From a virus, in the IMG/VR virus record IMGVR_UViG_3300045988_084596, positions 1-57,929 of that record: a stretch of 57,929 bases of DNA. One strand, 5' to 3'. This document shows positions 1-57,929 of the stretch, piece by piece. The first letter of the stretch is position 1. Every line of letters starts with the position of its first letter. The notes below the pieces were generated by a model. The model was not told the DNA's origin. It saw nothing but the letters and a program-made list of their open reading frames with translations, and searched no databases. Position numbers and translations under genes: made by a program.

Positions 1-23
1 TAGCTACATGATAAGGAGAAAGT

Positions 24-1241
24 ATGTCTGAAATAAATCAAGATACTACTTTCGAGCGTTTTTGTAGTTTTGACACTATGTATGATGCGTCTTATAAGGT
101 ATGCCGAAACGTTCGATGGAAAGATAGTACAATTAATTTTGAAGAGAATAGGATAGAAACAATTTTAAAAACAGAAGCTGATCTGCGAGCGTGTGAATAC
201 GAATAGCTTGTGTTTAGTTGTTTTTCGATAATCGAACGAGGCAAACCAAGAGATATAAGAGCGTGTCATATCAACGACAGACTGGTACAAAATGCGTTAT
301 GTGAACAAGTTTTATTACCAGAATTAACTCCTAGATTTATCTACGATAATTGTGCTACTTTAAGAGGAAAAGGAATAGACTTTGCTTTAAAAAGAGTAAA
401 GAAACATCTTCAACAAGCTCATAGAGAATATGGATTAGGAAAAGATTTTTATGGGTTAAGAATTGATATTCAAAAATATTTTGATTCTATTGACCATAAA
501 TCTTTAAAGAAAGCGGCTAAACGTTTGATAAAAGATAAAAGAATTTATCAACTATGCTGTTATTTAATAGATACATTTTCTTTTAAGCTAACAAAAGATT
601 CCTCTCCCATACCAGGAAAAGATTATTATATTAGTAAACGGCACAAATACACGAGAATTAGTACCACTAATTTTAAGCCTGGCCGCAAATACTATGAATA
701 TGATAATAAAAGTCTTGGATTAGGAAGTCAAACATCACAATTATTCGCATTGCTAGCATTGAACGAAATTGACCACTTCATCAAAGAAGAGTTACATATT
801 AAGTATTATGGTCGTTATATGGATGATTTATATTTATTCCACAATGACAGTCAATACTTAGCCGAATGTGAAAAGAGAATAGAAGTTCGCTTAAATAAAC
901 AAGGATTAAAGATGAATAAGAAAAAGACTACTATTACTAGAATCTCTCCTATTCACGCGGACGGCAAACGTCACGCTCCATTAAAATACTTAAAGTGGAA
1001 CTTTTATCTCACAGACACTAATCATATAATACAAATTCCTTTTAAAAAGAAAGTGGCTCATTAGCGCAGAAAGTTGAAGAAAATGCAAGCGCTATGGCTA
1101 GAGGGTAAAATTTCAACAGATGAAATTTAGAAATCCTATCAAGGTTGGAGGGCACATATTTCTAAAGGAACTTGTTTTTATATAATTCAAGATATGGACA
1201 ATTATTTTCGTTCATTATTTAAAGGAGTTGAAATAAAGTAA
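24..1241 (+). CDS. DGR-type reverse transcriptase (diversity-generating retroelement RT), translated through 3 in-frame TAG codons (204-206, 1062-1064, 1128-1130)
   Basis: RBS AAGGAGAAAGT before ATG at 24. Motifs ERGKPRDIRACHINDRLVQNAL (RT motif 1), QKYFDSIDH (motif 2), LGLGSQTSQLFALLALNEIDHF (SQ instead of SP, DGR hallmark), GRYMDDLYLF (YxDD active site), C-terminal thumb SYQGWRAHISKG. The ORF track splits it into 24-206 plus 210-1064, but both are in frame 0, as is the extension to the TAA at 1239-1241. Confidence 0.8.
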
Positions 1242-1903
1242 TGTATATTCTATTAAATAGAGAGAATGTAGTAGTTGATATTCTTTCAGAAGCACGTTAC
1301 ATTAAACTGCAATCCTCAAATGGTATTGTCGTTGCCTGCGAGGAAGAAGAGGGAACTGGGGTTATCGGCTCAAATGGAGATACACATTATACTCTAATTA
1401 AAGCCGATGTATTAAATCAATCTAATGCTGTAAAAGTATTAGAGATAGAAACAATTCCATCAGATGTTACTCCTAATTATTCAATATATAATCAAGAAGA
1501 TGGAACATTCACTTCTGATTTAGATTAGGCAAAGTATGACAAACAAGAGGAAAACAAGAAACTATTCGCAGAGTATCTTGCTACCCACCCACTAACTTGG
1601 GTTGATGGAAAAGAATATGGAATTACGTAGGAGGACCAGTCTGAGATTAGCTTAAATCTCAATCAATATCAAGTCGCTCTCGCGGCCGAAGTAGAAAATC
1701 CTACGCTTGAGTGGCACGCTCGACACGAAGAATGTGTGCCATGGAGTTTAGAGCAATTATCCGCTCTAAGTTTAGCTATTTTAAATGCGGTATATCCCAA
1801 ATATCATTTAATGCAAGAATATAAAACTTAGATATTCGAAGCTGATTCAATAGATAAATTAAAAGCTATTGAATTAAACTATGAAGATACCGACAGTGAG
1901 TAA
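1241..1903 (+). CDS. hypothetical acidic protein (~220 aa) with 3 in-frame TAG codons
   Basis: ATG overlaps the RT stop (TAATG). Frame stays open through TAG codons to the TAA at 1901-1903. No motif recognised. Confidence 0.45.
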
Positions 1904-2338
1904 AAATATAATTCTATTTGCAGTTGGAGGAACTCTATATTACGGTATAGAGTTCCTCTATAAAACTTTTATCAGCTTTGGAACTTGTCATTGGTCTATG
2001 TTCTTATTGGGCGGCTTATGCTTTTTATTAATAGGACTAATGAATGAGAACGTTCTTTGGGAAGAATCTATTCTTACTCAAGGAGTAAAAGGCTCTTTAA
2101 TCATAACTGCTTTAGAATTAATCTTTGGTCTAGTATTAAATGTAAAACTAGGCTTAGGTATTTGGGATTATTCTCATGTTCCATTGAATTTTATGGGGTA
2201 GATTTGTTTACCATTCTCTATCGCCTGGTTCTTTTTAAGCCTTTTGGCAATAGTATTAGACGACTGCCTAAGATGGAAATGGTTTGGAGAAGAAAAACCG
2301 CATTATCATTTATATAGTAAACCTCCTTGCGAGAAATA
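1881..2338 (+). CDS. small multi-pass membrane protein (~152 aa), one in-frame TAG at 2199
   Basis: Hydrophobic segments FAVGGTLYYGIEFLY, MFLLGGLCFLLIGL, LIITALELIFGLVL, CLPFSIAWFFLSLLAIVL. Ends at TAA 2336-2338, immediately before a bidirectional terminator. Confidence 0.45.
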
Positions 2339-2390
2339 AAAAAAAATGGGGAGAACCTTGAAATTAAGGTTCTCCCCATTTTTTTTATTT
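2336..2390. terminator. bidirectional rho-independent terminator between convergent transcription units
   Basis: A8 tract, hairpin ATGGGGAGAACC/GGTTCTCCCCAT (2346-2379), then a T8 tract. Confidence 0.7.
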
Positions 2391-3167
2391 TACATCAATG
2401 ATAATAATAGCAATATCATTTGTTGGTTTTTCTTTTGTATAAAAGGTAATTCCAACCCCAACTGATGCATCAGCGTGATCAATTTTACTATACTCTTCAA
2501 GATTAGAAGTATAACTAATAATAGGTGGCACATTACCTGCTTTTCCGCAAGTTAAAGAAGTATTGGAATAAGTATATGTATACATATCTTCATTTAATAC
2601 CCAACCTGATGCAGAAAGAGTTGCTGGATAAGCTGCCGTAGTACTTCCACTAATCTAGTTATCTGTTTCCAATTTGCTATACACATCTAAATTAGTTCTC
2701 GCCCCTGCTGCATTAATTGCCCCGGTTCCACCAACTGAAATTGGAAGCGTTCCAAATTGCGGAGCGCCAGCTGTAGCGGCAAATAAAGCGCCAGTTCCTT
2801 GCAATCCTGTTACACCATTCTCGCTATTTCCGATAACAATCTAACCAGCCGCAATTTCAACCATCTTTACCGCATTAGTTCCATTACCAATTAATAAAGC
2901 ATTTACAGTTAGACTATTATGTCCAGTTCCGCCCTGAGCTACAGTGGCAGTCATATTTTTAAGAAAAATATCATCAATATCAATCTCAGTAATATCATTC
3001 TTTAGAACTTGAGCAGCATAGGCATTTACCTGCAAACGCCCACCTTCTTCATTACTAATATCAATAAAGAGATTTCCTTTATCTTCTGTGAAATAAGCGT
3101 ATCCTTCATGAAGAGGTACACTATTCAAATTATCTTCTGGTCCTCGAAAAATCTTAAATAAAGCCAT
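2385..3167 (-). CDS. tail fibre protein (260 aa), one TAG
   Basis: RBS AAAGGAGGGCC before ATG at 3167. N-terminus MALFKIFRGPEDNLNSVPLHEGYAYFTEDKGNLFID matches the conserved N-terminal motif of Gram-positive phage tail fibres and HylP-like proteins. Last gene of the late operon; TAA stop at 2385-2387. Confidence 0.6.
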
Positions 3168-3200
3168 TTTAGGCCCTCCTTTATACTCTCTAAATATAAA

Positions 3201-5132
3201 TTAAGGTATTAAATCACTAAAACTTCCCCAAGATAACAACTCTTCTATCTATTCGGCAGAATATGTCTATCTATCTTTATTTGTAATAGCTCCACCGATT
3301 AAAGTGTTGATATAATGAACGCTATAAGTTTTATTTGTTACCTCTCCGCCATCTTCATTATTATAATCATTATCAATAAGGTTAGCAATACCTCCGGTTA
3401 GTTGAACTCTTCCCCATACTCCATCGGCTGCTTTATAATACCAATAAGAAGTTTCCTAATTAGTCTCATATTCAACCCAAGTAATAGAGAAAATATCCTC
3501 TGCGCTGATTTCTCCATCGTAATTTTCTTCGATGTAATTTACGCCATTCTATAAAGAATCCTTAATTGTTTCAGTTTCGTTAATAGTGTAACTTTTAACT
3601 ATTTTAAGAGCTTCTCCAACAGGACCTTTTAAGTTTCCTTTATTCTTAACCCATGTTCCATTAGAGCTTAATGAATAAATATCTCCTGTATCAGTATTTA
3701 AATACAAATCTCCTGTTTTAGCTCCATCAACAGTAACATTTAAAGATGTATCAGAAACAGCTAATCCAGCAAATAATTTAGATCCTCTTGGAATCTAGAA
3801 ATCAAGATTTACTGTATCAGAAGAAATAATCTTACTAGAGACAGATCCCTCTTCATCAATTCCTATAAAATCAAAAGAAACTCCGTATTTAACCGCGGAT
3901 GGCAGCCCAAAGATAAGTTTCCAAGCGGTTTCTTCCGTATTAGTAAATTCTCTTACTACAGTAGGTGCAGTTGGTTCATACTCGCTACCACCATTTGTAT
4001 AAGGATCTAATTTTGTTACTTCTATTTCAGGTAATGGAGACTAAATACAAGCAACATATTGGAAAGTGCAAGTTGTACCCGACTTCTTTGTTACCTTGTA
4101 AATAAAACCGGTCGGTGCATTAATATAATAATCACCAATATTATAATCTGCAAAAGCTTCATTCGTTTCTTCATAAGTCCCAGCAGTTCTTTCCCCTAAT
4201 AGTTCACCATAATAAAACTTAATAGATTCTGGTAAACTAAATTTTAATACCGGAGAATTAATATTAGTATTATCTATCTAAACTGATGGGTTTTCCTCTG
4301 GACCTACAATAATAGTCTCTGGATTTCCCATTACCTAGCTTTGAGGTAAAAAGAAATTAATAACTGGCTTATTTATATCATCAAAATTTATCTCAAAATA
4401 TGGTGTTTCATTAGAATCAAGAACTGTTGTAGTTCCTTCCTATAATGATTGAGATACAGGTAATTGGAATTTAATTGCCGGTCTATTTATAGAATAAGAA
4501 CCAGACGTTTCTAAGGATACTGTAGGTTCCTCTCCAACATTTAATAATTCAACTAGCGCCGTTTCAATAACTTGTGATTGTGGCAAAGATAATTTTAAAC
4601 TTGGATTATTTATATCTGTTGTATCTAATTTCACACTAGGATTTTTATTGCAATCTAGAACGGTTGTTTCACCTAATTGAATATTTTGACTCTAAGGTAA
4701 CTAAAAAGTTAGCCACAATCTATCTAAATCTGTATTATCCCAAACTACATTTGGATCTTTATCGGCATCAAGAACTTCTGTATCATGTAGGCTAATTCTT
4801 GGTGTATTTCCTGTCATGGAAGCCTGCATCTCATAGCTTAGGCCGCCCGCAGACCCACTTCCATCTTTATCATTAAAAACTTTTTTCCAAAGGGTAGAGT
4901 TATAACTTTTACCATAATTCTATAAATCTTCATTCTTATAAATATCATAATTTGCATCACTTGGCAAACCATACGATACAATAACGAAATCTCCAGGGAA
5001 AATAGAAGATGTCCAACCCTTTGTTAAATCTCTATCCATCTAATATTTACTAGTAAAGATTTGCTTAATTTCAAAATCTATACCTTTAGGTCCTCCATAG
5101 AAACTCTCCATAGTTTGACACCTCCTTATACA
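3201..5132 (-). CDS. large tail fibre / receptor-binding candidate (~643 aa) with repeated L-P-Q/E-S-Q modules, many TAG codons
   Basis: Frame is continuous with ORF 4440-4634 and ends at TAA 3201-3203. Internal repeats KLSLPQSQVIE, KFQLPVSQSLQ, NFFLPQSQVMG, KFSLPESIKF. In-frame ATG at 5132 overlaps the upstream gene's stop. The strong RBS-ATG at 5110 is in another frame and closes after 27 codons. Confidence 0.5.
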
Positions 5133-5706
5133 TAAATAAAGTCAATAATGACATTATATAAATCCTAATAATTTTCTGGAGCATCAACATTATCAGGATT
5201 TGGTAGTACATAAATGCCATTTACCCCCTGATTATATAAGCTTAATGCTGTCTAATAAGCCTCTATATAAGCAGTCTGAATATTATTATATGCGTCCCAA
5301 TAAGCCTTATACCCTTCTGGATCGGTATCTTGATCTGGCATATCTGGATTTTCTTTATAAAATCTCTCCAAATCTTCACTCCTTTTTTTATCTGCGGCTT
5401 GCATTCCCGCAGTTCCTTGTTCAATAGCCTACTGAGATGCTTCTTCGTCTTTTTCATACTTTCTAGGTCTAATAAAATACATATTAGTAATAGCTATGTC
5501 ATCATCTAGTTCATATATTCCAGTTCTACCAACCATAATAGTTTTTGATTCATTCATAACTATCTTGGTCCCAGCAGGAGCCTATACTCCAACTTTATTA
5601 AATTGAGAGGCCCCCACTTGGACAACAATATCACTGAATATATTCTACCCACTAGAAACATAACTACCACTGTTGTTATCTATTACATTATAATATATTT
5701 GACCAA
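5125..5706 (-). CDS. tail-associated protein (~190 aa); start uncertain (see findings)
   Basis: Open frame ending at TAA 5125-5127 and containing TAG codons. The best RBS-ATG (5716) is in the -1 nt frame and stops after 9 codons. A TTG at 5706 is in the body frame. Confidence 0.35.
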
Positions 5707-5732
5707 CAGTTGGCATTATCTCCTACTCCTCC

Positions 5733-7616
5733 TTATACTCTTGTTAATACTTCCGTGGCTGTAATACTCATAGTTCCATTATATGAAAGAGGTAAAGTGA
5801 ATTGAGTTATCTAATAATTTCCACTAAGTCCACTGTCTTTATCTTCAACATAAAGAATATTATTTGGTTCCATATAATATTTTGGTAAACAAGTAATGGA
5901 TATAGTTGTATTATAATTTAAATTCTAATACAACATTTCTCTAATTTTATCAAAACAACTCGCATTTGTGGAGCTTATTGAAAATAAATTATAATACTCA
6001 GAAGTAAGAACAAAAAATCTCTAACCAATTCCTCTATATTCTGCTATCAAATCCTGGTCTAATCCTTCAATAAATATAATATCAGGAGCTTCTATATTAT
6101 ATACGGAAGTTATATCAGAACTATTAATTACTTTAGTCCTTCTACCTATCTCATTTATTGAATATTTTCCAATTTCTGAACCGGTATCTATAAAATCTAG
6201 CCAATAGTTTAAATTTCCTGGATTATTAAATACATCTGGATTCCAATGATTATATTCATCCCATTTCTCATTTAGTGGATTATATAAATTGCGCCATTCG
6301 GCGATTAATTCAGAGTCATAGTAATTATCATATACACTATTTGTTACTTGTGCGTTTAATGCTCTACGATATAATTCCTCTCTCCACTCATCGCACGGAG
6401 ATCCAACTAATTCTACTTCATATCCTGATATTGAATAATCAGAAGATATATTATTAAAATCATATCTTATAATTAATCCCGTCTCTTTATCACTCACAGC
6501 CCACATATAATATCCTGCTAAGTCAATTATTGGTTTGGTATCAATAGCAAGATGATACCTAATATCAACTTCTATTCCAGATGTAGTGGTTCTCTTTCCC
6601 CAAACATAAAAATCATTTTTTATATTATCAAACTTTGGACTGCGGGTTATGGCTGTAGTAGTATCAAGATCGGTTAAAGAGTATAAAAACTTAGCATTAT
6701 TATAGCTCTTTACATAATTTTCTGGAGATAACTCTGTTAAAGGACTTCCAGTATTAAGATAATTCTTTATCTCCTAAAAGATAAAGCGACCATCTATATC
6801 ATAAAAATACTCAAAATTTCCAAGAACTTCAACTATTTTATCTAATAGAGTAGTTACAGTATCTTCAGCATCTAAAATTAATTCTCCCGGATAAGTAAAT
6901 TCAGTTTCTCTATATCCAGCATCCTATCCATAACTTACCATATGAGGAAAATCAGCGCTTGGAGAAAAGTCCATACTTTCATAATTATTGCTAAAATATA
7001 TGGGTTTATCTCCTATATATTTAACTAACATCTTACAAGTTTCTTCTATGTCAGTAATAATAATATTTGTTATAGCTTCTCCGCCCCAATGGTTGACTGC
7101 TTCATATATAATTTGAAAGATAGTTGGATATACAATTTCTATATCTCCATCTTTTTTCTATATATAACTTTCATGAAAGGTTATAGAGCCTGGAAACGTC
7201 CCTCCTGCGGTTCCATCAAGTAAACACATTTTATCTTTTCCACTTATAGAGATTGTCCATCCAGAAGTGGATCTTGCTACCGATGCGTTAGATAAAACAA
7301 ATAATCCACAAGGAAACCAAATTATGTCACCATAATTTGCATAAGATTTTAAGGGATTATTATATCCAACAAAAACTTTAACTTTCTTGTTTATTGAAAT
7401 CTCATTATCTATATTTTCAATATCGCTATTATTCTCATTAGCCAACATAGTTAGGTTAATTGTTCTACGAACAGAGGACGATCCATTAACACTTAAACTA
7501 CCAGCAGTTATGTTACCCTATATTTCTCTAATAGGTTTTTCATCAAAAGAAAGTAAAATAATTTTTGCGTAATGAGTTTTAATATTTAATTTATCAAGAG
7601 CTATAAGGAAATCCAT
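5733..7616 (-). CDS. tail/baseplate structural protein (627 aa), several TAG codons
   Basis: ATG at 7616. Frame matches ORFs 7158-7448 and 6021-6506; TAA at 5733-5735. N-terminus MDFLIALDKLNIKTHYAKIILLSFDEKPIREIQGNITAGSLSVNGSSSVRRTINLTML resembles the N-terminal region of siphophage distal-tail/Tal-type proteins. Confidence 0.5.
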
Positions 7617-7629
7617 ATCATTTAAATAA

Positions 7630-48199: not shown

Positions 48200-48216
48200 A
48201 CTCTTTAATATCGTTT

Positions 48217-49573: not shown

Positions 49574-49574
49574 A

Positions 49575-49757: not shown

Positions 49758-49786
49758 GAAGGGCTTCGGCCCTTCTTTTTTTATAC
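49758..49786 (+). terminator. intrinsic terminator (UUCG tetraloop hairpin)
   Basis: GAAGGGCTTCGGCCCTTC then TTTTTTTAT. Confidence 0.55.
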
Positions 49787-49792
49787 AAAATT

Positions 49793-49832
49793 TGAGCGGG
49801 TCGCGCAGGAACGGCGCGACCCGAGTTTTTCT
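49793..49832 (+). terminator. conserved GC-rich hairpin terminator (family member 4)
   Basis: GAGCGGGTCGCGCaggaacgGCGCGACCCGAGTTTTTC. Confidence 0.55.
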
Positions 49833-50027
49833 TTGTAAATGTTGCACAAAAATTTCAGCTCCGTTTTGTGTAAAATTCTGCACAAAAACTTTCTCCCAAA
49901 ATTCAGATTTTTTGTGCAATTTGACGCTTGCAATCTGCTTTTGCTTGTGGTAAAATACATTCAGAAAGTGAGAGAGACGAACGGCAGACAGCGACAGCGA
50001 ATTTCTCAAAAATCTTTCAAGAATCTC

Positions 50028-50056
50028 TTGACAAGCCTTTGAAGATGTGCTATAAT
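50028..50056 (+). promoter_or_regulatory. consensus sigma70-type promoter P1 of a triple tandem array
   Basis: TTGACA-agcctttgaagatgtgc(17)-TATAAT. Confidence 0.55.
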
Positions 50057-50105
50057 AAGTACAGAAAACAAGGCAAGGAACCTTGAAAAGTGAATAAAAA
50101 AGGGC

Positions 50106-50134
50106 TTGACAAACTCTCCAAAGTGTGTTACACT
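50106..50134 (+). promoter_or_regulatory. sigma70-type promoter P2
   Basis: TTGACA-aactctccaaagtgtgt(17)-TACACT. Confidence 0.45.
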
Positions 50135-50200
50135 ATAAGGGAGGTTGAGAGGGCAAACAAGTAAAGAGCAAAAGTTCTTGAAAAAAGTTTGAAAAACCTC

Positions 50201-50229
50201 TTGACAAACTCCCGATAGTGTGGTACAAT
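50201..50229 (+). promoter_or_regulatory. sigma70-type promoter P3
   Basis: TTGACA-aactcccgatagtgtgg(17)-TACAAT with extended TG. Confidence 0.5.
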
Positions 50230-50278
50230 ATAATCAAAGGACAAGGACAGTCCTAAAAACCAGAAAGGATGTATTACC

Positions 50279-50680
50279 ATGAGCGAGAAGAAAATCCGTA
50301 TCACTAAGGCCCAGCGTTTCGAGGACATTAAGGCCCTCTTGGCTGGTGATGAGGTGAAGCATGGCACAACCATGGAGATTGCCATGACCGTCATTGACCA
50401 TGAGCTGGAGCTGTTGCGGAAGAAGAATAGCTCCGGCGGTGACAAGAAGCTGACCTCGACCCAGCAGGAGAACGAAAACTTTAAGGAGCAGATTATGGAG
50501 TATCTGGCTGGTCTGGACGCCGATACCGATGGCGTGACCTGCACGGAAATTTTTAAGGCTATTCCTGATCTGACGGCCTATTCTAACCAGAAGGTCGCCG
50601 CTCTTGTGCGGCAGTTGAAACTCGATGGTCGAGTAGTCTGCACGGAGAAGAAGGGCAAGTCCCTCTTTAAGATGGCGTAA
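50279..50680 (+). CDS. hypothetical protein (133 aa), compositionally atypical (GC-rich codons), possible winged-helix C-terminus
   Basis: RBS AGAAAGGATGTATTACC. Codon usage (CTG, GAG, AAG, GCC) differs visibly from the rest of the window. Followed by hairpin GGGCGGGGtgaaaatCCCCGCCC. Confidence 0.45.
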   Translation: MSEKKIRITKAQRFEDIKALLAGDEVKHGTTMEIAMTVIDHELELLRKKNSSGGDKKLTSTQQENENFKEQIMEYLAGLDADTDGVTCTEIFKAIPDLTAYSNQKVAALVRQLKLDGRVVCTEKKGKSLFKMA

Positions 50681-50818
50681 CCCCGTATAGGGCGGGGTGA
50701 AAATCCCCGCCCTAACTTATAATATGGGGGTGATATTATATCCAGTCGCATTAGTGACGCTGAACGGATTGCAAGGTATAAAGCCCTGCAATTAACGCCG
50801 GAAGAGGAGGCAGATTTA

Positions 50819-51136
50819 TTGGCCTATGATAAGGCGGTAGAGGCTGATAAAAAGACTGAATACGATTTATCGCCAGAAAAGGCGAAAATCGCTCAAAAGT
50901 TTGCCCATGCTGGAACGCGCAAACAGCCAACCGCATATAAGTTCACTACACGGCAACGCAAGCCAAACGCCACGAAAGGCGGTATAATTGCGGAATTGGC
51001 AGAGTTTTTGGAAAAAAACAGTCAATTCTCTATCGCTGACTTGTCTATTACTAACAAGGAAAGACAGATTGCGTTTTCTATTGGTGGGGATAGTTTCGAG
51101 TTGACGCTTGTGCAAAAGCGTAAGCCGAAGAAATAA
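50819..51136 (+). CDS. hypothetical basic protein (about 105 aa); start uncertain
   Basis: TTG at 50819 from the track. The frame is open back to 50723 with no ATG. Followed by hairpin CGGGGTAGGgtcggCCTACCCCG. Confidence 0.3.
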   Translation: MAYDKAVEADKKTEYDLSPEKAKIAQKFAHAGTRKQPTAYKFTTRQRKPNATKGGIIAELAEFLEKNSQFSIADLSITNKERQIAFSIGGDSFELTLVQKRKPKK

Positions 51137-51192
51137 CGGGGTAGGGTCGGCCTACCCCGGCCCTACCAGAAAAGAGGCAAGTTATAGTTAGT

Positions 51193-51543
51193 TTGCAGAC
51201 AAGGGGAAAAGAGTTCCTATATGTCGGACATTATATCGACAAAAAGGGGCGCTATATTCTCAAGATTGGTACGACAAATGACCTTGAACGCAGAGCCGCA
51301 GAGCATACGAGAAATTATAAGCGGGCGCCAGATTACACCATGCCGGAAGATGGTTCCTTTATCTATGATTGGCATATCAAACTTTCCAAGTATAATACCC
51401 TACGATACGAGGATGTAAACCGGACTTTGTGGCAGAATATGGGAATTGGTCGTTTTATCAGAAATGACCGTTTCTTGTGCGACACTCCCCCGGCCATGGT
51501 TACGGTGGTTATTCGCAAGGCATATCCAATAATTCTCAACTAA
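51193..51543 (+). CDS. GIY-YIG-like nuclease domain protein (116 aa)
   Basis: FLYVGHYIDKKGRYILKIGTTNDLERRAAEHTRNY resembles the GIY...YIG...R...E catalytic core. Confidence 0.45.
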   Translation: MQTRGKEFLYVGHYIDKKGRYILKIGTTNDLERRAAEHTRNYKRAPDYTMPEDGSFIYDWHIKLSKYNTLRYEDVNRTLWQNMGIGRFIRNDRFLCDTPPAMVTVVIRKAYPIILN

Positions 51544-51548
51544 AGAAA

Positions 51549-51577
51549 AATCTCCCCTTATGGGGAGATTTTTTTTA
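51549..51577 (+). terminator. intrinsic terminator
   Basis: ATCTCCCCttatGGGGAGAT then TTTTTTTT. Confidence 0.6.
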
Positions 51578-51587
51578 CGCAAAATTT

Positions 51588-51628
51588 TGGGCGGACCGCT
51601 TGCGTGCGCCGCGGTCCGATTTTTTCTT
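51588..51628 (+). terminator. conserved GC-rich hairpin terminator (family member 5)
   Basis: GGGCGGACCGCttgcgtgcGCCGCGGTCCGATTTTTTC. Confidence 0.55.
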
Positions 51629-51679
51629 CTATTGTCATTTTCAACAATTTTGAATTGAAAATCTGTGCAACTTGACAGC

Positions 51680-51708
51680 TTGACTTTCTCCCAAAAATGT
51701 GGTATCAT
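51680..51708 (+). promoter_or_regulatory. sigma70-type promoter
   Basis: TTGACT-17-TATCAT with extended TG, preceded by TTTCTCCCAAAAA. Confidence 0.45.
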
Positions 51709-51734
51709 TTAACCATGGAAAGGAGATAAAAGAA

Positions 51735-52187
51735 ATGGAAAGTCTGAAACAATTTCGTGTTAATTTTCAAGTTACCTTTTGGTGTGAAGGTCGCAAGGGT
51801 ATTTTCTCTAAGAAGCCTTATAAATTTACGGTATCATTTTGTGATGATATTATACTTTCTACCTTTTTAATCAATGCTCGAACCGAAAAAGAAGCGGTTA
51901 AAACGGGGAAAAACTATGTTGAAAATATAGTTCAATGTTGGGTTGAACAGTCAGAAGAAAATCAAGCCACAGGCGAATATATGATTTTAACTGGAAATAT
52001 GGCTGATACAAAAAGATTTGAGTGGTCGCCTAAAATCTACGCCATTACCGGGTATGAAATTAAATTTATTTCTTGTGAAATGGTTTGCGACTGGGCAAAA
52101 GAAAGGGTCGAGAGAGCGGCAAGAGAACTGACTATGGAGCAATTTAAGCAAGTTTTTAGTGAAATTCCGGCTGAGATTTTTCATTAA
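51735..52187 (+). CDS. hypothetical protein (150 aa)
   Basis: RBS AAAGGAGATAAAAGAA before ATG at 51735. Confidence 0.4.
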   Translation: MESLKQFRVNFQVTFWCEGRKGIFSKKPYKFTVSFCDDIILSTFLINARTEKEAVKTGKNYVENIVQCWVEQSEENQATGEYMILTGNMADTKRFEWSPKIYAITGYEIKFISCEMVCDWAKERVERAARELTMEQFKQVFSEIPAEIFH

Positions 52188-52204
52188 AGAAAGGAGATTT
52201 TTAG

Positions 52205-52456
52205 ATGGTTGATATTGATTTCAACAAACTGAATGACGAGGAGTTGCAATGGTTGAGTGCTACAGCCTATAAAGAAGTGGCACTTAGAAAACAAAAAGCG
52301 CGAGAGAAAGATTGGAATAGTCTAATCGAAGAGATAGACGAGTATTGTAAAAAGTATGGAGAAATAACTATCGTTGAATATGGAGATAAATTTGTTCTTG
52401 AATTTCCGATACGGTGTAACTGTATAGGAGAAATCAATTTAGAAAACGAGGATTAA
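52205..52456 (+). CDS. hypothetical protein (83 aa)
   Basis: RBS AAAGGAGATTTTTAG before ATG. Confidence 0.4.
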   Translation: MVDIDFNKLNDEELQWLSATAYKEVALRKQKAREKDWNSLIEEIDEYCKKYGEITIVEYGDKFVLEFPIRCNCIGEINLENED

Positions 52457-52458
52457 GA

Positions 52459-52486
52459 AAAGAGAGGCTTCGGCCTCTCTTTTATT
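52459..52486 (+). terminator. intrinsic terminator (UUCG tetraloop hairpin)
   Basis: AAGAGAGGCTTCGGCCTCTCTT then TTATTT. Confidence 0.5.
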
Positions 52487-52502
52487 TCATATTTCCTAAA
52501 CT

Positions 52503-52541
52503 CGACGGGCCGATCGCGGGCGACTCGGCCCGAGTTTCCCC
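52503..52541 (+). repeat. GC-rich hairpin family member 6 (no T-run)
   Basis: CGACGGGCCGatcgcgggcgactCGGCCCGAG has the same architecture as the five terminator hairpins but ends in TTTCCCC. Confidence 0.4.
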
Positions 52542-53269
52542 GATCGGACCATAGCGCAAAATTTTCATAGCAACTTGGCCATAACGCAACTTCATAGCGA
52601 TTTTCCCAAAATTCATAACGCCCTCTTCCAAACACCGATCGGCCCTACTTTACTTCTTCCTTTATCTAGTTCCGATCGGTTCAGCAATATTGGCTCTCTC
52701 GTCCAATTTTTTATAATAAAAATCTTAAAATTGTCAAGTATTCACAGTACCAAAACTTTCTAAAATACAACTAGCAATAGCAAAGATATAGCTATGAAAA
52801 ACAAATACGACCAGAGATTTCTTTCGCGGAGCCGATCGGTTTAACACGATTTTATGATAAAAATAGCTTAAAAATAGAGATTTTAGCTAGATAAACCGAT
52901 CGGCCCGCAATCTTTTACCTTTTGTTATCGCAAAATATAACAAAAAACCTCTAAAATCTTGCAAAAATGCGCGTTTTTCTAACAAATTTACTTAAAAATA
53001 AGTAAAAAATGCCTCGTTTTTCTCAAAATTTCTTGATATTCACAGAATTAAAACCATTAAAGATACAGCAAACAATAGCAAAGATGTTGCTAACTATTTG
53101 AAAAGGAAAAATCTTTTCCGCGGGATTCCATTAAAGCGATCTTTTTATCTAGACCCGATCGGTTCGACAATATATAAAAAATATAATATAATATATACAT
53201 AAGATAAAGAAAAGGAGGATTTTAGTTTAAGAAGCATCATAACGCTTTTTCTAACTAAAAGAACTTATT

Positions 53270-53713
53270 ATGAATAGTTATGAGATTATGATTCGTGATG
53301 CAATGCAGAATGGTTCTACTCAGGAGGAGATTGCAAAGGCATTTACCGATGCTATGAATAGAATCTCCGAGGCTAACGCCGCAGACCGTGAACGCGATAT
53401 TCTTCTGGATGAGATTGAGTCTACTTTTTATGGCAATGTTGATGATTTGTCTCTCACTGAGGATGACGTTGGTCGTGTAGCTGCGCTGGTTTATAGCAAG
53501 AGCAATCCTAAGTGGACAGCAAATGATATTAAGCAGTTTATGCAGGCTATGACTGTAACTGCTAAGACTTCCGCTCGAGTAGTCAATGCAAAGAGTCTTG
53601 ATGAAGTAATTGACATTGCTGTTGACTCTATTTCTGATGCTCTCGCAGGTAGTATGAATAAGGCTAAGACTGATGAGGACAATATCATGGAGTTTTTGAG
53701 ACATTTGAAGTAA
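53270..53713 (+). CDS. hypothetical acidic protein (147 aa)
   Basis: Protein-like composition on the plus strand; the antisense ORF 53255-53722 is low-complexity. Weak RBS; followed by terminator GGAGAGAAGtattgtaGCTTCTCTCC plus a T-run. Confidence 0.4.
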   Translation: MNSYEIMIRDAMQNGSTQEEIAKAFTDAMNRISEANAADRERDILLDEIESTFYGNVDDLSLTEDDVGRVAALVYSKSNPKWTANDIKQFMQAMTVTAKTSARVVNAKSLDEVIDIAVDSISDALAGSMNKAKTDEDNIMEFLRHLK

Positions 53714-53899
53714 GATAAACAAGAGGAAAAAGATTAAAGGAGAGAAGTATTGTAGCTTCTCTCCTTTTTTATATATATTATAATCGCGGAAGGCTAGGTT
53801 TACGATCGTTGTGACGAGTGTTGTGATGGTTGTACCTAGACCCGATCGGCACCCAACTCCACCATTTTATAAACTCCTTTTAATTTCCTTTAATTTCTT

Positions 53900-54319
53900 T
53901 CAATCTTCATATAAAGATAATCTATATCTCTATCCAGTTCTATTTATCTCTCTTATCCTTCCAACCAAATCATATATCTCTCCATTTTTATCTCGATTTT
54001 TCAATTCGATTTCTCTAAAACCTTCTTCTAACTTTTCAATTCGTTTTTCTAAATCGGTTATAGAGTCCTCTAAATCTTGAGTAAAAACATCTATACTTAT
54101 CCTATTATGATATTTATCTACTATAACTCTACTTCTTCCTTCTACCTTTAAATTCTCTTCCATCCATTCTTCTAACTTATCATCAAATTTATTCTTTACA
54201 AAATATACCTTGCCTTCTTCTTCATCATCTTTAAAGTAAACTAATACTGGTTCATACTAATTTAATCCATTTTTCACGAATTGATAATTTTCTACCTTAA
54301 TTGGTTTAAATACTTCCAT
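53900..54319 (-). CDS. hypothetical protein (139 aa), 2 TAG codons
   Basis: RBS TAATGGAGGATAAAAAT before ATG at 54319. Frame includes ORF 53930-54163 and ends at TGA 53900-53902. Confidence 0.4.
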
Positions 54320-54450
54320 ATTTTTATCCTCCATTATAATTGCGGGCACATGGGACTTCGATATTCTGAGAGCGGAGCTCGAAGAAATATCGAAGTCCCT
54401 TAGATAAATTATTTAGTATATTATTTAGATATAATATGATTTTTTACCTC

Positions 54451-54496
54451 TCGTAAATAGATAAAATTACCCTTTCGTAGATAGATAAAATTACCC
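54451..54496. repeat. two 22-bp direct repeats (iteron-like)
   Basis: TCGTAAATAGATAAAATTACCC at 54451-54472 and TCGTAGATAGATAAAATTACCC at 54475-54496, overlapping the 3' end of the replication-organiser-like gene. Confidence 0.45.
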
Positions 54497-55129
54497 ATTC
54501 AGCTCAATAGTCAAATTAAACTAGATTAATCTCATACGAGGAACGGGTTTACCATTACTCTAATCATAATAATTTTCATACTCAATAAGACCAAGCTTTG
54601 ACAAACACAGTAGCGCATTTGTCACAATCTAAGAATTTCTTGAACTTCCTTCTGTTTTTAATCCTATATGTTCACCGATCTCCTTAAGAGTAAAACTATA
54701 TTTTTCATCCGTGCCTAAAGATTCTTTATATTTCCATCTTTGCCCTAAATATGTGTAAACCTTGATTACCTATTCCTTCAAAGTATCATTTATAAATCTC
54801 AAAGTCTACAATGGAATCATAAAAAAAATATCTTCTTTCATAGGAAGAATATACTACCTATTTTCTTCATCATCAATTATATAACCCTAAGCTATAAGAT
54901 AATCTCTGTGCGCTCGATAAGTCTTTGGAGTTTTTATACCAAGTTTCTCACATAGACTATTCTACGAAGGAACATCATCTTTTGAAACCACTGTCTATCC
55001 ATTTTTATCTACATACGATAATTCCTAAAATAACGCATATAATTCTCCATCAATCTTTTTGTCATTTAAAAAAGTCTAGGTATCAAGAGTTACATTAGCA
55101 GGAAATCTTTTTGATATATTTCCTTTCAT
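54490..55129 (-). CDS. phage replisome organiser / DnaD-like N-terminal domain protein (~200 aa), about 10 TAG codons, with a +1 frame discontinuity near 55019-55023
   Basis: RBS ATAAGGAGGTGATAGAAG before ATG at 55129. The body frame (ATG at 55065 to TAA at 54490-54492) encodes FFMIPLQTLRFINDTLKEQVIKVYTYLGQRWKYKESLGTDEKYSFTLKEIGEHIGLK, resembling the phage replication-organiser N-terminal domain. The two frames join seamlessly if one T of the run at 55019-55021 is skipped. Confidence 0.45.
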
Positions 55130-55430
55130 CTTCTATCACCTCCTTATATTATATAAAAAATAAAGGGTAAAAACAAATTAACTTTACCCAATAACTAAAT
55201 ATTTTCTCAAAATCATGATATACTTCCTCTACGTACATATGAAATTTTACCTCAATTTTTTACCTCTTTTGGATATTCCGATCGTTTTTAAAATGCGGGA
55301 TTGCCAATTTCTCTGCCTAAAAAATTCCCGCATCCGTGAGAAATTATGACGGTTCGTTATAATCCATAAGATTTACTTGCATATCTTAATAAAATACGGT
55401 AATATATTTATATAAATAAGAAAAGAGGTT

Positions 55431-55943
55431 TTGCTCATGCCATTAACTATTGGATTCTTTATATTACTCATGGTTACATCGCTTATAGTATTATATAAAG
55501 ACTGTGACTCTTTTGCAGAATATCTATTCTCTACAATTCTCGGAGTTGTACTTTCAGCATTTATCACTTTCTTATTTGCGATTATAATTTGTGGTATTGT
55601 TATTTTTGTTGAACCTGCAACCTATTCTGCGAAAACCACTCAAACATATTCTATTACTGCTTTGAGTGATAATTTTAGTTCTTACGTAGGCTGTTATTAT
55701 ACAGAAGATGGGCTCTATTACTCATTCCTGTATCAAACAGATAAAGGTATAACTGCTAAATCTATTGAAGCAAATTAGTCTTATATCAAGAACACAAATG
55801 ATGACCCATACATAGAAGAAAATAAAATCCGTTTCAAAAACCCAGTTTTAAATTTCTTACTTGGACCTCGGTCTGTTGAATACACCATCTATATTCCAGA
55901 AGATTCATTTATCCAAGAGAATTATGTAATCGACCTTGAGTAA
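55431..55943 (+). CDS. membrane protein (~170 aa), one TAG at 55776
   Basis: RBS AAGAGGTTTTGCTC before ATG. Two TM helices LTIGFFILLMVTSLIVL and LGVVLSAFITFLFAIIICGIVIFV; reads through TAG to TAA 55941-55943. Confidence 0.4.
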
Positions 55944-55980
55944 AATAAAGACGCTCTTAAAAGAGCGTCTTTATTTTTTT
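55944..55980 (+). terminator. intrinsic terminator
   Basis: AAAGACGCTCTTaaAAGAGCGTCTTT then ATTTTTTT. Confidence 0.6.
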
Positions 55981-56032
55981 ATAAAATTATTATATAATAT
56001 ATATAGAAAGTTAAGGAAAGGGAGTAAAAGTT

Positions 56033-56467
56033 ATGAAGATTAGTGAGCTGATTAAATCAGAAGGATACAAGAACTCCACTGTAAGAATCTGCGAGTTCCT
56101 CGGCTTTTCTGATACAGATCAACTCAAAAGAGCTAAATTCTTCGCTATTCAAGAAACTTATAGTCCTATTCCGGTTCTTGGGGTCAGCATTAATAATGGA
56201 GACCCAACTTGGCGGTTATGCGAAGTAGATAATAATGTAAGAGATCTCTATTCTGTTGATGAAGGATATAAAATTCGCCTTAAAATTTGCAACGAGTTCG
56301 GAGGTCGTACTTACTATCAAAGTGATTTTCTCTCCTTGCTAAAGAGTGGACACATTGTTTATTGTCCTAATGAAAATAAATATAAAATTAAACACATTGT
56401 TTGCGCAGAAAAAATCAGCGATGGAGCAATCTTAATTCATGAATTTGATTCTGTAGAGGAGGTATAA
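56033..56467 (+). CDS. hypothetical protein (144 aa)
   Basis: RBS AAGGAAAGGGAGTAAAAGTT before ATG. Confidence 0.4.
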   Translation: MKISELIKSEGYKNSTVRICEFLGFSDTDQLKRAKFFAIQETYSPIPVLGVSINNGDPTWRLCEVDNNVRDLYSVDEGYKIRLKICNEFGGRTYYQSDFLSLLKSGHIVYCPNENKYKIKHIVCAEKISDGAILIHEFDSVEEV

Positions 56468-56470
56468 AAT

Positions 56471-56662
56471 ATGGATATGTCATTTTTCGCATACACTGGC
56501 GCTTTTGAACTGGCTGCTCGAGAATTGGCTTCAAAGCCATGGACTATGAACGATCCATCTCAGCAAGCGCAAATCTGCGCAAAATACGGTATCTTTTTTG
56601 ATAACATAACAGATGATGAAATTGATATGCTTTCTCAAATGGTTGAAGAGTATTCTAATTAA
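56471..56662 (+). CDS. hypothetical acidic protein (63 aa)
   Basis: RBS GAGGAGGTATAAAAT before ATG. Confidence 0.35.
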   Translation: MDMSFFAYTGAFELAARELASKPWTMNDPSQQAQICAKYGIFFDNITDDEIDMLSQMVEEYSN

Positions 56663-56678
56663 AGAAAGGAAGAGAAAT

Positions 56679-57215
56679 ATGATTGGTGAGACTATTACTG
56701 TAAATGGAGTAAAGTGCCTTGTTCTTGACGAAATTGATGGTAACCCCTTCGTAATTGCACTTGAAGTAGGAATTGATTTTGTCTTTGGAAATTCTAATAA
56801 CTATAAAGAGAGTACATTGCGGAAGGGCGCTGAGGCTTGGCTTAAGAAAACTGGCATTAAGGCTATTCCGCGCGATGTCGACCTGACTGCAATGGATGGA
56901 TATAAAGGATATGGTTCACTAAATACCGCTGTTGCACCCCTTACCTTCGACGAATATCGCAAGTATAATCATATTCTAACTCCTCATATCAAGAATTGGT
57001 TCTGGCTTGTTACCCCTTGGGGATCTCCTGAGAAAGATAATTGGGCCTCGCTCTACGTTTGCGTTGTCCTCTACGATGGGTCTGCGACCTACAACTTCTA
57101 CTACACCGGCATCGGGCTCGCGCCGGCTTTCATTCTTGATAAAAATGAGAAGTCTCTTAGTGACTTTACTAATGAGGAGCTAATTGCTGAACTTAACAAG
57201 AGATTGAAGGTATAA
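56679..57215 (+). CDS. hypothetical protein (178 aa)
   Basis: RBS AAGAAAGGAAGAGAAAT before ATG at 56679. The track's 56613 start is in the same frame. Confidence 0.4.
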   Translation: MIGETITVNGVKCLVLDEIDGNPFVIALEVGIDFVFGNSNNYKESTLRKGAEAWLKKTGIKAIPRDVDLTAMDGYKGYGSLNTAVAPLTFDEYRKYNHILTPHIKNWFWLVTPWGSPEKDNWASLYVCVVLYDGSATYNFYYTGIGLAPAFILDKNEKSLSDFTNEELIAELNKRLKV

Positions 57216-57217
57216 TT

Positions 57218-57929
57218 ATGTATCGCCTTAGCTCTAAAGATATTGACCCAATTCTTGACAAATATACAGAAAAAGTTAATTCCAAAACAGGATATTATAA
57301 AATTCCGTATGATTCGTGGAGACTATTAAAGAAATTAGCTTCCTCAGAATTAACTTTTGAAGTTGAAACTAAAATTCGCTGTGGAGAAATTTTTCTACTC
57401 TTAAATAGTGGCTCTTTTCACTATGACATTCCCATCACTTACGGTTTTGTAAGTATTATGAAAGAAAGGTTGACAAAGGCAATGTATACTGATTCTAATT
57501 CTGCTACTACTAATTCTAAGCCCAATAAGCCCTCTTTTAATATGAATATTGATTTTGGCCCTTGCGGAGATGAGGTGGCCTTTTCTCCTTATGGCTTGGC
57601 TATTCGTAATTCTAAGGGTGAATATTTTACCTATAATCCTACCTCTAAACAGACCATTGATGTGACTGGTTTTACTTTCACCTTCCAGAATATGGTATAT
57701 CGTATGCCTGTCGCGGCTTCTGCTGTAAAGGAAGGCGACATGATTATTCATAAGCATCACCCCATGTTCGTTTCGTCAATTTCTGAAGGTAACATTGAAG
57801 TCATTGATATCCTTGAGTCTGAGGTTAAAACTGTAATTCCCACCTCTAATCCCTTTGGCTTTAACTTTATTACCAAGATTATGCCTATCGTAAACTTTGG
57901 TAATACTGCACCTTCTCCTGACCAGCCTT
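57218..57929 (+). CDS. hypothetical protein, 5' partial (at least 237 aa, runs off the window)
   Basis: ATG at 57218 after AAGGTATAATT; frame 2 has no stop to the end of the window. Confidence 0.4.
   Translation, partial: MYRLSSKDIDPILDKYTEKVNSKTGYYKIPYDSWRLLKKLASSELTFEVETKIRCGEIFLLLNSGSFHYDIPITYGFVSIMKERLTKAMYTDSNSATTNSKPNKPSFNMNIDFGPCGDEVAFSPYGLAIRNSKGEYFTYNPTSKQTIDVTGFTFTFQNMVYRMPVAASAVKEGDMIIHKHHPMFVSSISEGNIEVIDILESEVKTVIPTSNPFGFNFITKIMPIVNFGNTAPSPDQP

What the first reader, a model, noticed from the sequence alone, without database searches (positions are those of the whole stretch)
1..57929. Genome-wide reassignment of the TAG (amber) stop codon
Many proteins only make sense if TAG is translated.
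- FolD (41131-41916) aligns residue by residue with bacterial FolD across four in-frame TAGs.
- The tape measure protein (15618-24323) keeps one frame for 8.7 kb, linking a typical TMP N-terminus, an internal ORF, and the conserved GGYTGEF...LHEKELVLN C-terminal motif.
- Terminase large subunit, portal, the DGR reverse transcriptase, the 1304-aa tail protein and the replication-organiser-like gene all carry TAGs too.

Every confident gene end is TAA or TGA; I found no gene that must terminate on TAG.

No suppressor tRNA (anticodon CUA) and no release factor gene is recognisable in this window. They must lie elsewhere on the element or be supplied by the host.

The amino acid inserted is not determinable from these alignments. 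Gln is the common case in recoded phages.
Basis: partly seen in the sequence, partly recalled or inferred. Interest (0 to 1): 0.85.

Follow-up and report, generated by a model that had tools for sequence, protein, structure and literature searches.

The report
Gut phage reads TAG as glutamine
This is part of a large human-gut phage that translates the TAG stop codon as glutamine, mostly in its late virion genes. The trick is real but already well documented, including for this phage's own relatives.

Summary
With TAG as a stop, the 38-kb late operon (2385-40754, minus strand) is 35% coding and its longest ORF is 464 aa. With TAG as sense it is 96% coding, with a 2,900-codon tape measure gene holding 111 in-frame TAGs. 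Making TGA or TAA sense does not rescue it.

- **Amino acid:** at 162 TAG positions aligned to standard-code relatives, Gln is the commonest residue (23.5% against a 5.6% background) and the best fit by 30 log-likelihood units. In an 85%-identical relative, window TAGs are TAG (42), CAA/CAG (16) or other (5).
- **Distribution:** TAG supplies half of all Gln codons in late genes (2.3% of codons) but 0.18% in the early-like block. It is absent from the capsid, major tail and three other late genes.
- **Machinery:** the window has no tRNA. Contigs of the same species (95-99% identical) carry one tRNA(CUA) in a 30-tRNA array, 25 kb beyond the window's right end. Its acceptor stem matches the phage's tRNA-Gln(UUG). 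No release factor was found.

This is genetic code 15, described for gut phages since 2014 and for this clade (phAss-1 group) in 2023. It is a new member of a known kind.

The parts
2385..40754 (-). Late (virion and packaging) operon of 24 tightly packed genes. It holds 279 in-frame TAGs in 12,123 codons, equal to the CAA+CAG count of 278.
   Evidence: Coding density is 0.96 under code 15 and 0.35 under code 11.
15618..24323 (-). Tape measure protein, about 2,900 codons with 111 in-frame TAGs (108 counted from the first ATG at 24143).
   Evidence: It aligns to the tail proteins of Enterococcus phage H1 and Alicyclobacillus phage KKP_3916 across 19 and 32 TAGs.
36714..38459 (-). Terminase large subunit with 13 in-frame TAGs.
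   Evidence: It is 45-49% identical over 90% or more of its length to standard-code TerL proteins. Four of the 13 TAG positions are Gln in all three relatives.
34711..36213 (-). Portal protein with 10 TAGs (12 in the longer ORF that runs to 36366).
   Evidence: phrog_2739 portal, E = 6.4e-80, covering residues 34-499.
11652..15566 (-). 1304-aa tail protein with 27 TAGs.
   Evidence: It is homologous to a phAss-1 tail protein.
39639..40709 (-). First gene of the late operon, sigma-factor-like, with 11 TAGs.
   Evidence: phrog_5767 'sigma factor', E = 2.9e-37. No Pfam hit.
31674..32726 (-). Major capsid protein with no TAG among its 13 Gln-type codons.
   Evidence: phrog_4088. The phAss-1 homologue also has no TAG.
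26534..27925 (-). Probable major tail protein (PHROG 'virion structural protein'), with no TAG.
   Evidence: phrog_2729. The phAss-1 homologue also has no TAG.
32746..33435 (-). TAG-free late gene next to the capsid gene (decoration or scaffold-like). Genes 31076-31609 and 24427-24966 are also TAG-free.
   Evidence: Across the five genes there are 0 TAGs in 37 Gln-type codons, against 54% elsewhere in the operon (P = 4e-13).
24..1241 (+). DGR reverse transcriptase with 3 TAGs. Its TR, VR, Avd and target gene lie just left of the window.
   Evidence: RVT_1, E = 1.4e-16. In locus L011 the TR/VR pair is 103 nt and all 22 mismatches fall at TR adenines.
41131..41916 (+). FolD with 4 TAGs, the first gene of the plus-strand block.
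41823..57928 (+). Early-like block of about 23 genes, including PARG and PTH2. It holds 2 TAGs in about 3,090 codons.
47017..47250 (+). AbrB/MazE-like gene with one TAG inside the DNA-binding domain, an early-block gene that needs read-through.
   Evidence: The Pfam matches stop at the TAG. My own reading of the sequence is that the domain continues past it.
53900..55129 (-). Two minus-strand genes embedded in the early-like block, with 13 TAGs in 361 codons (TAG makes 13 of 16 Gln-type codons).

Best explanation
The window is about 58 kb of a large siphovirus from the human gut (contigs of 96-148 kb). It belongs to the Enterococcus-phage-EF1 / phAss-1 group and uses genetic code 15, in which TAG is decoded as glutamine and TAA and TGA remain stops.

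**Shown**
- TAG is in frame in nearly all late genes.
- TAG interchanges with CAA and CAG among relatives and aligns to Gln in standard-code homologs.
- Contigs of the same species encode one canonical 76-nt tRNA with anticodon CUA inside a 30-tRNA array. The array is co-oriented with the TAG-poor genes and the tRNA lies 25.4 kb beyond the window's right end.
- That tRNA shares acceptor-stem pairs 2-6:67-71, U72 and G73 with the phage's own tRNA-Gln(UUG).

**Inferred**
- Infection starts in a host that uses the standard code, so the TAG-poor early genes are translated at once.
- The suppressor tRNA is then made, charged with Gln by host enzymes, and lets the TAG-rich late genes be translated. 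These include a sigma-factor-like gene that heads the late operon.
- Recoding would thus gate the late programme, as in the Borges/Yutin model.
- The most abundant virion proteins stay TAG-free, presumably because read-through still competes with RF1.
- A tape measure gene with 111 TAGs needs about 98% read-through per codon to give 10% full-length product.
For: - ORF and density statistics.
- Homolog coverage across TAGs.
- Gln assignment: 38 of 162 aligned positions are Gln against a 5.6% background. The log-likelihood is best for Gln by 29.8 over Lys. The TAG-to-Gln match rate (0.235) is close to the Gln-to-Gln rate (0.208).
- Codon exchange with relative L012 (85% nucleotide identity): window TAGs align to TAG 42, CAA 8, CAG 8 and other 5. 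The relative's own TAGs align to window CAA 20 and CAG 8, out of 34.
- Standard-code clade members (MT836163 and IMG/VR contig 145614) carry CAA or CAG where the window has TAG.
- TAG plus CAR brings late-gene Gln content to 4.6%, against 2.3% without TAG.
- The suppressor tRNA is found by ARAGORN and scores 59.8 bits on the Rfam tRNA model. It sits in contigs 95.7-99.3% identical to the window and in two metagenome contigs.
- The published relative phAss-1 is filed under 'Caudoviricetes code 15 clade' and has tRNA-Sup-CTA genes.
Against: - The suppressor tRNA is seen in conspecific contigs, not in the window's own molecule.
- Its overall sequence is no closer to tRNA-Gln (0.68) than to tRNA-Trp (0.71) or tRNA-Lys (0.70). 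Its anticodon arm looks Trp-like, so its charging identity is inferred.
- No RF2, RF1 antagonist or aminoacyl-tRNA synthetase turned up in the sequence examined (the window plus about 66 kb of conspecific flanking sequence). How RF1 is outcompeted is unexplained.
- FolD and two minus-strand genes in the 'early' half contain TAGs, so the early/late split is not clean.
- The timing of expression is not tested at all.
Confidence: 0.88

Rival explanations
1. TAG is translated as an amino acid other than Gln, such as Lys, pyrrolysine, Glu or Trp. ARAGORN labels the CUA tRNA 'Pyl', and its anticodon arm resembles tRNA-Trp.
For: Lys and Glu are the next commonest residues at aligned TAG positions. 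The anticodon stem-loop is similar to that of tRNA-Trp(CCA). Relatives at 68% identity carry a different, 91-nt CUA tRNA with an extra arm.
Against: Log-likelihood falls by 29.8 for Lys, 38 for Glu and 129 for Trp relative to Gln. Close relatives exchange TAG almost only with CAA and CAG. The tRNA is a canonical cloverleaf, not the Pyl type, by my reading of its sequence. The 'Pyl' label follows from the anticodon alone.
Confidence: 0.05
2. The TAGs are true stops. The genes would then be pseudogenes, or the pattern would be a sequencing or assembly artefact of a decaying element.
For: Code-11 gene calls fragment the region, and public records of relatives are annotated that way.
Against: There are 279 in-frame TAGs in the 24 late genes and, by their construction as ORFs, no in-frame TAA or TGA. 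The 2,907-codon TMP frame alone has ln P of -137 or lower by chance. Homologs align straight through the TAGs. The same TAG positions are kept in independent assemblies from other samples.
Confidence: 0.01
3. Suppression is supplied by the host (a host suppressor tRNA or a host with altered termination), and the phage tRNA(CUA) is dispensable.
For: Some recoded relatives lack a detectable suppressor tRNA (PMC7886860). Nothing in the window itself supplies decoding.
Against: All five same-species contigs that reach that region have the CUA tRNA, and so do three more distant relatives. TAG avoidance in the early genes argues that the cell is not permissive for TAG at the start of infection.
Confidence: 0.04
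4. TAG use mainly tunes protein dosage through leaky read-through rather than acting as a timing switch. TAG density would set the yield of each late protein.
For: High-copy virion proteins have no TAG, while low-copy ones such as the TMP (3.8% of codons) have many. The pattern repeats in phAss-1.
Against: With 111 TAGs, any appreciable leakiness would abolish the TMP. TAG-free genes also have higher GC (38% against 33%), so ordinary codon optimisation of highly expressed genes may explain the pattern. This reading is compatible with the main explanation rather than exclusive of it.
Confidence: 0.15

Closest known systems
phAss-1 and the proposed Phassvirus / EF1-like monophyletic group (Babkin et al. 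2023, PMC10607447; GenBank OQ749652, NCBI 'Caudoviricetes code 15 clade')
   Same: A human-gut siphovirus of well over 100 kb with a TMP of about 3,000 aa. TAG occurs in TerL, portal, TMP and tail genes. There is a large tRNA array with tRNA-Sup(CUA), NAD-salvage genes lie next to the array, and no dedicated synthetase is present. The capsid and major tail genes are TAG-free in both.
   Different: TerL identity is only 43.6% and there is no nucleotide-level match to any record in the phage collection. One suppressor tRNA was found here against three in phAss-1, and it is only 67% identical to the phAss-1 copy I compared. A DGR cassette is present here; I did not check phAss-1 for one.
Stop-codon-recoded gut phage clades of Borges et al. 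[quoted passage not shown]
   Same: TAG is recoded to Gln and concentrated in structural genes. The phage encodes the suppressor tRNA. Standard-code and recoded members mix within one clade. The likely host belongs to Firmicutes and uses the standard code.
   Different: Membership of any named clade was not tested. No RF2 or 'code-change module' of tRNA, synthetase and release factor was found.
Code-15 crAss-like phages (Yutin et al. 2021, PMC7886860; proteomic validation by Peters et al. 2022, PMC9523058)
   Same: The same reassignment with the same bias toward late genes. [quoted passage not shown]
   Different: A different phage lineage: TerL here groups with Enterococcus, Geobacillus and SPbeta-like siphoviruses of Firmicutes. 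In crAss-like phages, stop codons inside the capsid gene were among the criteria for calling recoding. Here the capsid gene has none.
Enterococcus phages H1, EF1 and VRE9, and Geobacillus virus E3 (standard-code relatives)
   Same: Homologous TerL (45-49% identity), portal, capsid, tail and sigma-like genes in the same order. The Enterococcus phages also carry PTH2.
   Different: They have no in-frame TAG. They carry Gln, Lys or Glu where this phage has TAG.

Membership tests
Genetic code 15 phage (TAG to Gln) | In-frame TAG in conserved essential genes whose standard-code homologs are uninterrupted | tested here: met
   TerL, portal, TMP and FolD align through 13, 10, up to 32 and 3 TAGs respectively.
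Genetic code 15 phage (TAG to Gln) | TAG positions correspond to Gln in homologs | tested here: met
   Gln is the best-fitting residue by 29.8 log-likelihood units. TAG exchanges with CAA and CAG in close relatives.
Genetic code 15 phage (TAG to Gln) | TAA and TGA remain stops, and no other reassignment explains the ORFs | tested here: met
   TGA-sense and TAA-sense translations give no long ORFs. Of 53 complete genes, 44 end on TAA and 9 on TGA.
Genetic code 15 phage (TAG to Gln) | Suppressor tRNA with anticodon CUA encoded by the phage | tested here: met
   None lies in the window. One is present in contigs 95.7-99.3% identical to the window, 25.4 kb beyond its right end. That the window's own genome carries it is an inference.
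Genetic code 15 phage (TAG to Gln) | Gln detected at TAG-encoded positions in the proteins | not testable with these tools
   This needs proteomics, as in PMC9523058.
Recoding as a late-gene gate (Borges/Yutin model) | Recoded codon enriched in structural and lysis genes and depleted in early genes | tested here: met
   TAG makes up 2.30% of late codons against 0.18% in the early-like block. The exceptions are FolD and genes 53900-55129.
Recoding as a late-gene gate (Borges/Yutin model) | Code-change genes themselves readable in the standard code and expressed before the late genes | tested here: inconclusive
   The tRNA array sits among mostly TAG-free genes and is co-oriented with them. A few TAG-bearing fibre-like genes lie inside the array. 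Timing of expression is untested.
Recoding as a late-gene gate (Borges/Yutin model) | Release-factor change (RF2 gain or RF1 inhibition) | tested here: not met
   No GGQ-type release-factor motif occurs in any conspecific flanking locus scanned; the window itself was not motif-scanned, though its main ORFs gave no release-factor hit. About 18 kb of IMG/VR contig 080502 was not seen. This feature is optional in published clades.
phAss-1 / EF1-like phage group | Homologous TerL, portal, capsid and tail module in the same order, in a genome well over 100 kb with a giant TMP and a tRNA array | tested here: met
   No phylogeny was built, so placement inside the group is not resolved.
Pyrrolysine system (TAG to Pyl) | A tRNA-Pyl of atypical shape together with pylS/pylBCD genes | tested here: not met
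   The tRNA is a canonical cloverleaf. No pyl-like gene appeared among the ORFs searched. The alignments disfavour Lys-like residues.

The most novel reading that the evidence does not exclude
Decoding in this lineage is graded and needs help that has not yet been recognised. TAG supplies 54% of Gln codons in low-copy late proteins but is excluded from the high-copy virion proteins, both here and in phAss-1. A tape measure gene with 111 TAGs demands about 98% read-through per codon.

No release factor or synthetase is encoded in the sequence examined (the window plus about 66 kb of conspecific flanks). The phage may therefore carry a new kind of accessory that neutralises RF1 or boosts Gln charging of the CUA tRNA. 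Candidates seen near the tRNA array are a free-standing YqeY (GatB-tail-like) protein, a Thg1-like enzyme, and the PTH2 gene in the window.
Probability: 0.1. Interest if true: 0.6.

Novelty: new member of a known kind. Interest (0 to 1): 0.25.

Why it matters
**Practical value.** This genome and its IMG/VR and metagenome relatives are mis-annotated under code 11. Even two PHROG families correspond to halves of its TerL. They should be re-called with table 15.

**Biological value.** It adds a well-resolved case to a Firmicutes-phage clade in which standard-code and recoded members sit side by side, which suits the study of how recoding arises.
- There is a single suppressor tRNA with a Gln-like acceptor stem.
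- Abundant virion proteins avoid TAG completely.
- An extreme 111-TAG gene sets a lower bound on read-through efficiency.

None of this changes what is known about the phenomenon.

Tried and rejected
- **Megablast of window 30-45 kb against the phage collection** gave no match, so no near-identical published genome is available.
- **Walking the contig with the DNA search** wasted one scan. A pattern at a locus end returned the same stored chunk. Protein anchors with 10-kb flanks worked instead.
- **Anchor gene L007:11245-11769** is absent from the longer contigs because the early region is mosaic, and that contig ended 1.2 kb further on.
- **PTH2 as a recoding-specific factor** is rejected. 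Standard-code Enterococcus and C. difficile phages, and jumbo phages of other hosts, have it too.
- **YqeY-like protein as a recoding marker** is not supported. It is rare in phages, absent from phAss-1 by tblastn, and present in Brevibacillus phage Sundance, which I assume uses the standard code.
- **Release-factor search** by the GGQ motif over six-frame translations of the fetched conspecific loci, plus Pfam on the larger ORFs, found nothing.
- **ARAGORN's 'tRNA-Pyl' label** is set aside as based on the anticodon alone.
- **The label 'replication-organiser-like'** for 54491-55129 could not be confirmed.
- **Overall sequence identity of the suppressor tRNA** does not reveal its parent. Identity to the Gln, Trp, Lys and Leu tRNAs is 0.68-0.71 in every case.

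Full report
**What is in the window**

The window is 57,929 bases at 34.6% GC. It contains no tRNA gene and no Rfam family match.

Read with the bacterial code, it has no ORF longer than 464 aa, and ORFs of 100 aa or more cover about half of it. With TAG as sense, a 2,906-codon ORF appears. A tightly packed series of 24 genes then fills the minus strand from 2385 to 40754.

A greedy non-overlapping ORF tiling gives these coding densities:

| Translation | Whole window | Late region (2385-40754) |
|---|---|---|
| Code 11 | 0.45 | 0.35 |
| TAG sense (code 15) | 0.90 | 0.96 |
| TGA sense | 0.49 | 0.39 |
| TAA sense | 0.72 | 0.68 |

The TGA-sense and TAA-sense translations produce no long ORFs.

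The tape measure frame (15618-24338) holds 111 TAGs and no TAA or TGA. Those two codons occur at 4.6% and 12.5% in its other two frames, so ln P of this by chance is -137 or lower.

**The genes are real and run through the TAGs**

Profile searches identify most of the main genes:
- a portal protein (phrog_2739, E = 6.4e-80, residues 34-499);
- a capsid protein (phrog_4088);
- a virion structural, probably major tail, protein (phrog_2729);
- a sigma-factor-like protein (phrog_5767);
- an RVT_1 reverse transcriptase;
- both FolD domains.

TerL matches two different 'half' PHROG families. This suggests that recoded relatives were already in that database as fragments.

FolD aligns with solved FolD structures over residues 4-258, spanning three of its four TAGs.

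TerL is 45-49% identical over 90% or more of its length to TerL of Enterococcus phages H1 and VRE9_4, Geobacillus virus E3 and Alicyclobacillus phage KKP_3916. It is 43.6% identical to that of phAss-1.

**Which amino acid**

I aligned the window's proteins, with X at each TAG, against three standard-code relatives by tblastn.
- 162 TAG positions aligned to a residue. Gln was the commonest at 38 (23.5%), against a 5.6% background. Lys, Glu and Asn followed.
- Using substitution frequencies taken from the same alignments, Gln is the best assignment by 29.8 log-likelihood units over Lys and by 129 over Trp. The TAG-to-Gln match rate (0.235) is close to the Gln-to-Gln rate (0.208).
- Four of the 13 TerL TAG positions are Gln in all three relatives.

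A second line comes from closer relatives. In an IMG/VR contig with 85% nucleotide identity (L012):

| Comparison | TAG | CAA | CAG | Other |
|---|---|---|---|---|
| The window's 63 TAG codons align to | 42 | 8 | 8 | 5 |
| That contig's own 34 TAGs align to window | n/a | 20 | 8 | 6 |

Two clade members (MT836163 and IMG/VR contig 145614) have no in-frame TAG at all. They mostly carry CAA where the window has TAG.

In late genes TAG (279) equals CAA+CAG (278). Gln content is a normal 4.6% only if TAG is counted.

**Where TAG is used**

| Gene set | Codons | TAGs | TAG share |
|---|---|---|---|
| Late genes | 12,123 | 279 | 2.30% |
| Plus-strand block right of 41 kb | 3,348 | 6 (4 in FolD) | 0.18% |
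| Two minus-strand genes, 53900-55129 | 361 | 13 | 3.60% |

Five late genes have no TAG: the capsid gene, the major tail gene, 32746-33435, 31076-31609 and 24427-24966. Together they hold 0 TAGs in 37 Gln-type codons, against 54% in the other late genes (P = 4e-13).

Their phAss-1 homologues of the capsid and major tail genes are also TAG-free. These genes have higher GC (38% against 33%), so ordinary optimisation of highly expressed genes is a sufficient explanation.

**Gene ends**

Of the 53 complete genes called, 44 end on TAA and 9 on TGA. A gene that truly ended on TAG would show up as a TAG followed by a short random extension. Only four genes have a TAG within 15 codons of their end.
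- For FolD, the homolog alignment continues past the TAG.
- For 5126-5743, a standard-code relative has AAG at that position and the same conserved tail.
- The other two are undecided.

**The decoding machinery**

The window has none of it.

Exact-pattern and protein-anchored searches of IMG/VR found contigs of the same species. They are 98.9-99.3% identical over the left 11 kb and about 95.7% over the right end.

Walking rightward, an array of 30 tRNA genes begins 6.4 kb beyond the window's right end. It includes one 76-nt tRNA with anticodon CUA, 25.4 kb beyond that end, together with tRNA-Gln(UUG) and tRNA-Gln(CUG).

The Rfam tRNA model scores the CUA tRNA at 59.8 bits. The same tRNA occurs in metagenome contigs of 143 and 148 kb.

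Its features are as follows:
- It is a canonical cloverleaf with an encoded CCA end.
- Acceptor pairs 2-6:67-71, U72 and G73 are identical to the phage's tRNA-Gln(UUG).
- Position 1:72 is a U-U mismatch.
- Its anticodon arm resembles tRNA-Trp(CCA).
- Overall identity to the other tRNAs compared (0.54-0.71) does not single out a parent.

No release-factor (GGQ) motif and no synthetase were found in the conspecific flanking sequence scanned, about 66 kb beyond the window. The window's own main ORFs gave no such hit in the profile searches either.

**Mechanism**

- **Shown:** TAG is a Gln codon here, and a cognate tRNA is encoded by the species.
- **Inferred:** the phage enters a cell that uses the standard code and translates its TAG-poor genes first. 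It then expresses the tRNA array and can translate its late genes. The first of these is a sigma-factor-like gene with 11 TAGs.

This is the model proposed by Yutin et al. (PMC7886860) and Borges et al. (bioRxiv 2021.08.26.457843).

A 111-TAG gene needs about 98% read-through per codon for 10% full-length product. This is arithmetic, not a measurement. How RF1 is kept out is an open question here, as it is in the literature.

**Comparison with what is known**

TAG-to-Gln recoding in gut phages is established and has been validated by proteomics (PMC9523058).

For this particular clade, Babkin et al. 2023 (PMC10607447) described phAss-1. It has a 135,976-bp genome, a 3,149-aa TMP, 36 tRNAs and three tRNA-Sup-CTA genes, and they assigned TAG to Gln. 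They noted that several divergent members of the same monophyletic group are recoded while Enterococcus phage EF1 is not. NCBI lists phAss-1 under 'Caudoviricetes code 15 clade'.

The present phage is a distinct, more EF1-like member. Its best TerL hit is 60% identical, to an unannotated fragment, and it has no nucleotide match in the phage collection.

**Verdict**

The observation and the interpretation are both correct. The amino acid and the tRNA can now be named. The phenomenon is known, so the finding is a new member of a known kind and of modest interest.

Noticed in passing
window 24427-24966, 26534-27925, 31076-31609, 31674-32726, 32746-33435: Five late genes, including the capsid and major tail genes, contain no TAG although the neighbouring late genes use TAG for 54% of their Gln codons (P = 4e-13). 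The capsid and major tail homologues in phAss-1 are TAG-free too. These genes also have higher GC.
   Followed up: partly
window 39639-40709 (-): The first gene of the late operon is annotated by PHROG as a sigma factor and carries 11 TAGs. If it drives late transcription, that programme would itself depend on TAG read-through. There is no Pfam support.
   Followed up: no
window 24-1241 (+); L011 7006-9511: A complete DGR. The RT is in the window. The Avd gene, a 103-nt TR and the matching VR at the 3' end of a 598-aa target gene lie just to the left. All 22 TR/VR differences fall at TR adenines. The target gene and the RT both contain TAGs.
   Followed up: yes
window 42495-43262 and 43247-43684 (+): A microbial-type PARG (poly-ADP-ribose glycohydrolase) and a PTH2 peptidyl-tRNA hydrolase sit among the TAG-free genes. 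PTH2 also occurs in standard-code relatives, so it is not tied to recoding.
   Followed up: yes
L110 13194-13676, 17229-18095 and 12418-16436 (about 35-40 kb right of the window, by my estimate): Just past the tRNA array lie a free-standing YqeY-like (GatB-tail-like) protein (PF09424, E = 7.4e-9), a Thg1-like tRNA-His guanylyltransferase (E = 3.3e-29), a nucleotidyltransferase with a weak match to an RNA-repair family, and genes that look like an NAD-salvage set (named from their sequences only). All are TAG-free. YqeY is rare in phages: only 5 records matched.
   Followed up: partly
L097 19124-19214; L098 19064-19154: Relatives whose anchor protein is 68% identical carry a 91-nt CUA tRNA. It has the same general layout as the 76-nt one plus a 19-nt extra arm or insertion after the anticodon stem. 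The suppressor tRNA therefore varies within the clade.
   Followed up: no
L104 7487-7802: A related contig (IMG/VR 075249, 85% nucleotide identity) encodes a tmRNA with tag peptide DNDYFENYLAA inside its tRNA array. The closest relatives have a GIY-YIG endonuclease gene at that spot instead.
   Followed up: no
L107 2064-2180: A 117-nt tRNA-like gene scores 49.8 bits on the Rfam model. ARAGORN calls it only when introns are allowed, as tRNA-Lys(CUU) with a 42-nt intron.
   Followed up: partly
L107 11283-15656: Two TAG-free genes lie beyond the tRNA array. One is a 506-aa protein with DUF2828 and DUF7788 domains. The other is an 813-aa protein with major-vault-protein repeat and shoulder domains.
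   Followed up: no
window 36714-38459 (TerL): TerL matches two separate PHROG families of about 240 positions each (15503 at the N-terminal half, 24618 at the C-terminal half). These are probably built from code-11 fragments of recoded phages and labelled 'unknown function'.
   Followed up: no
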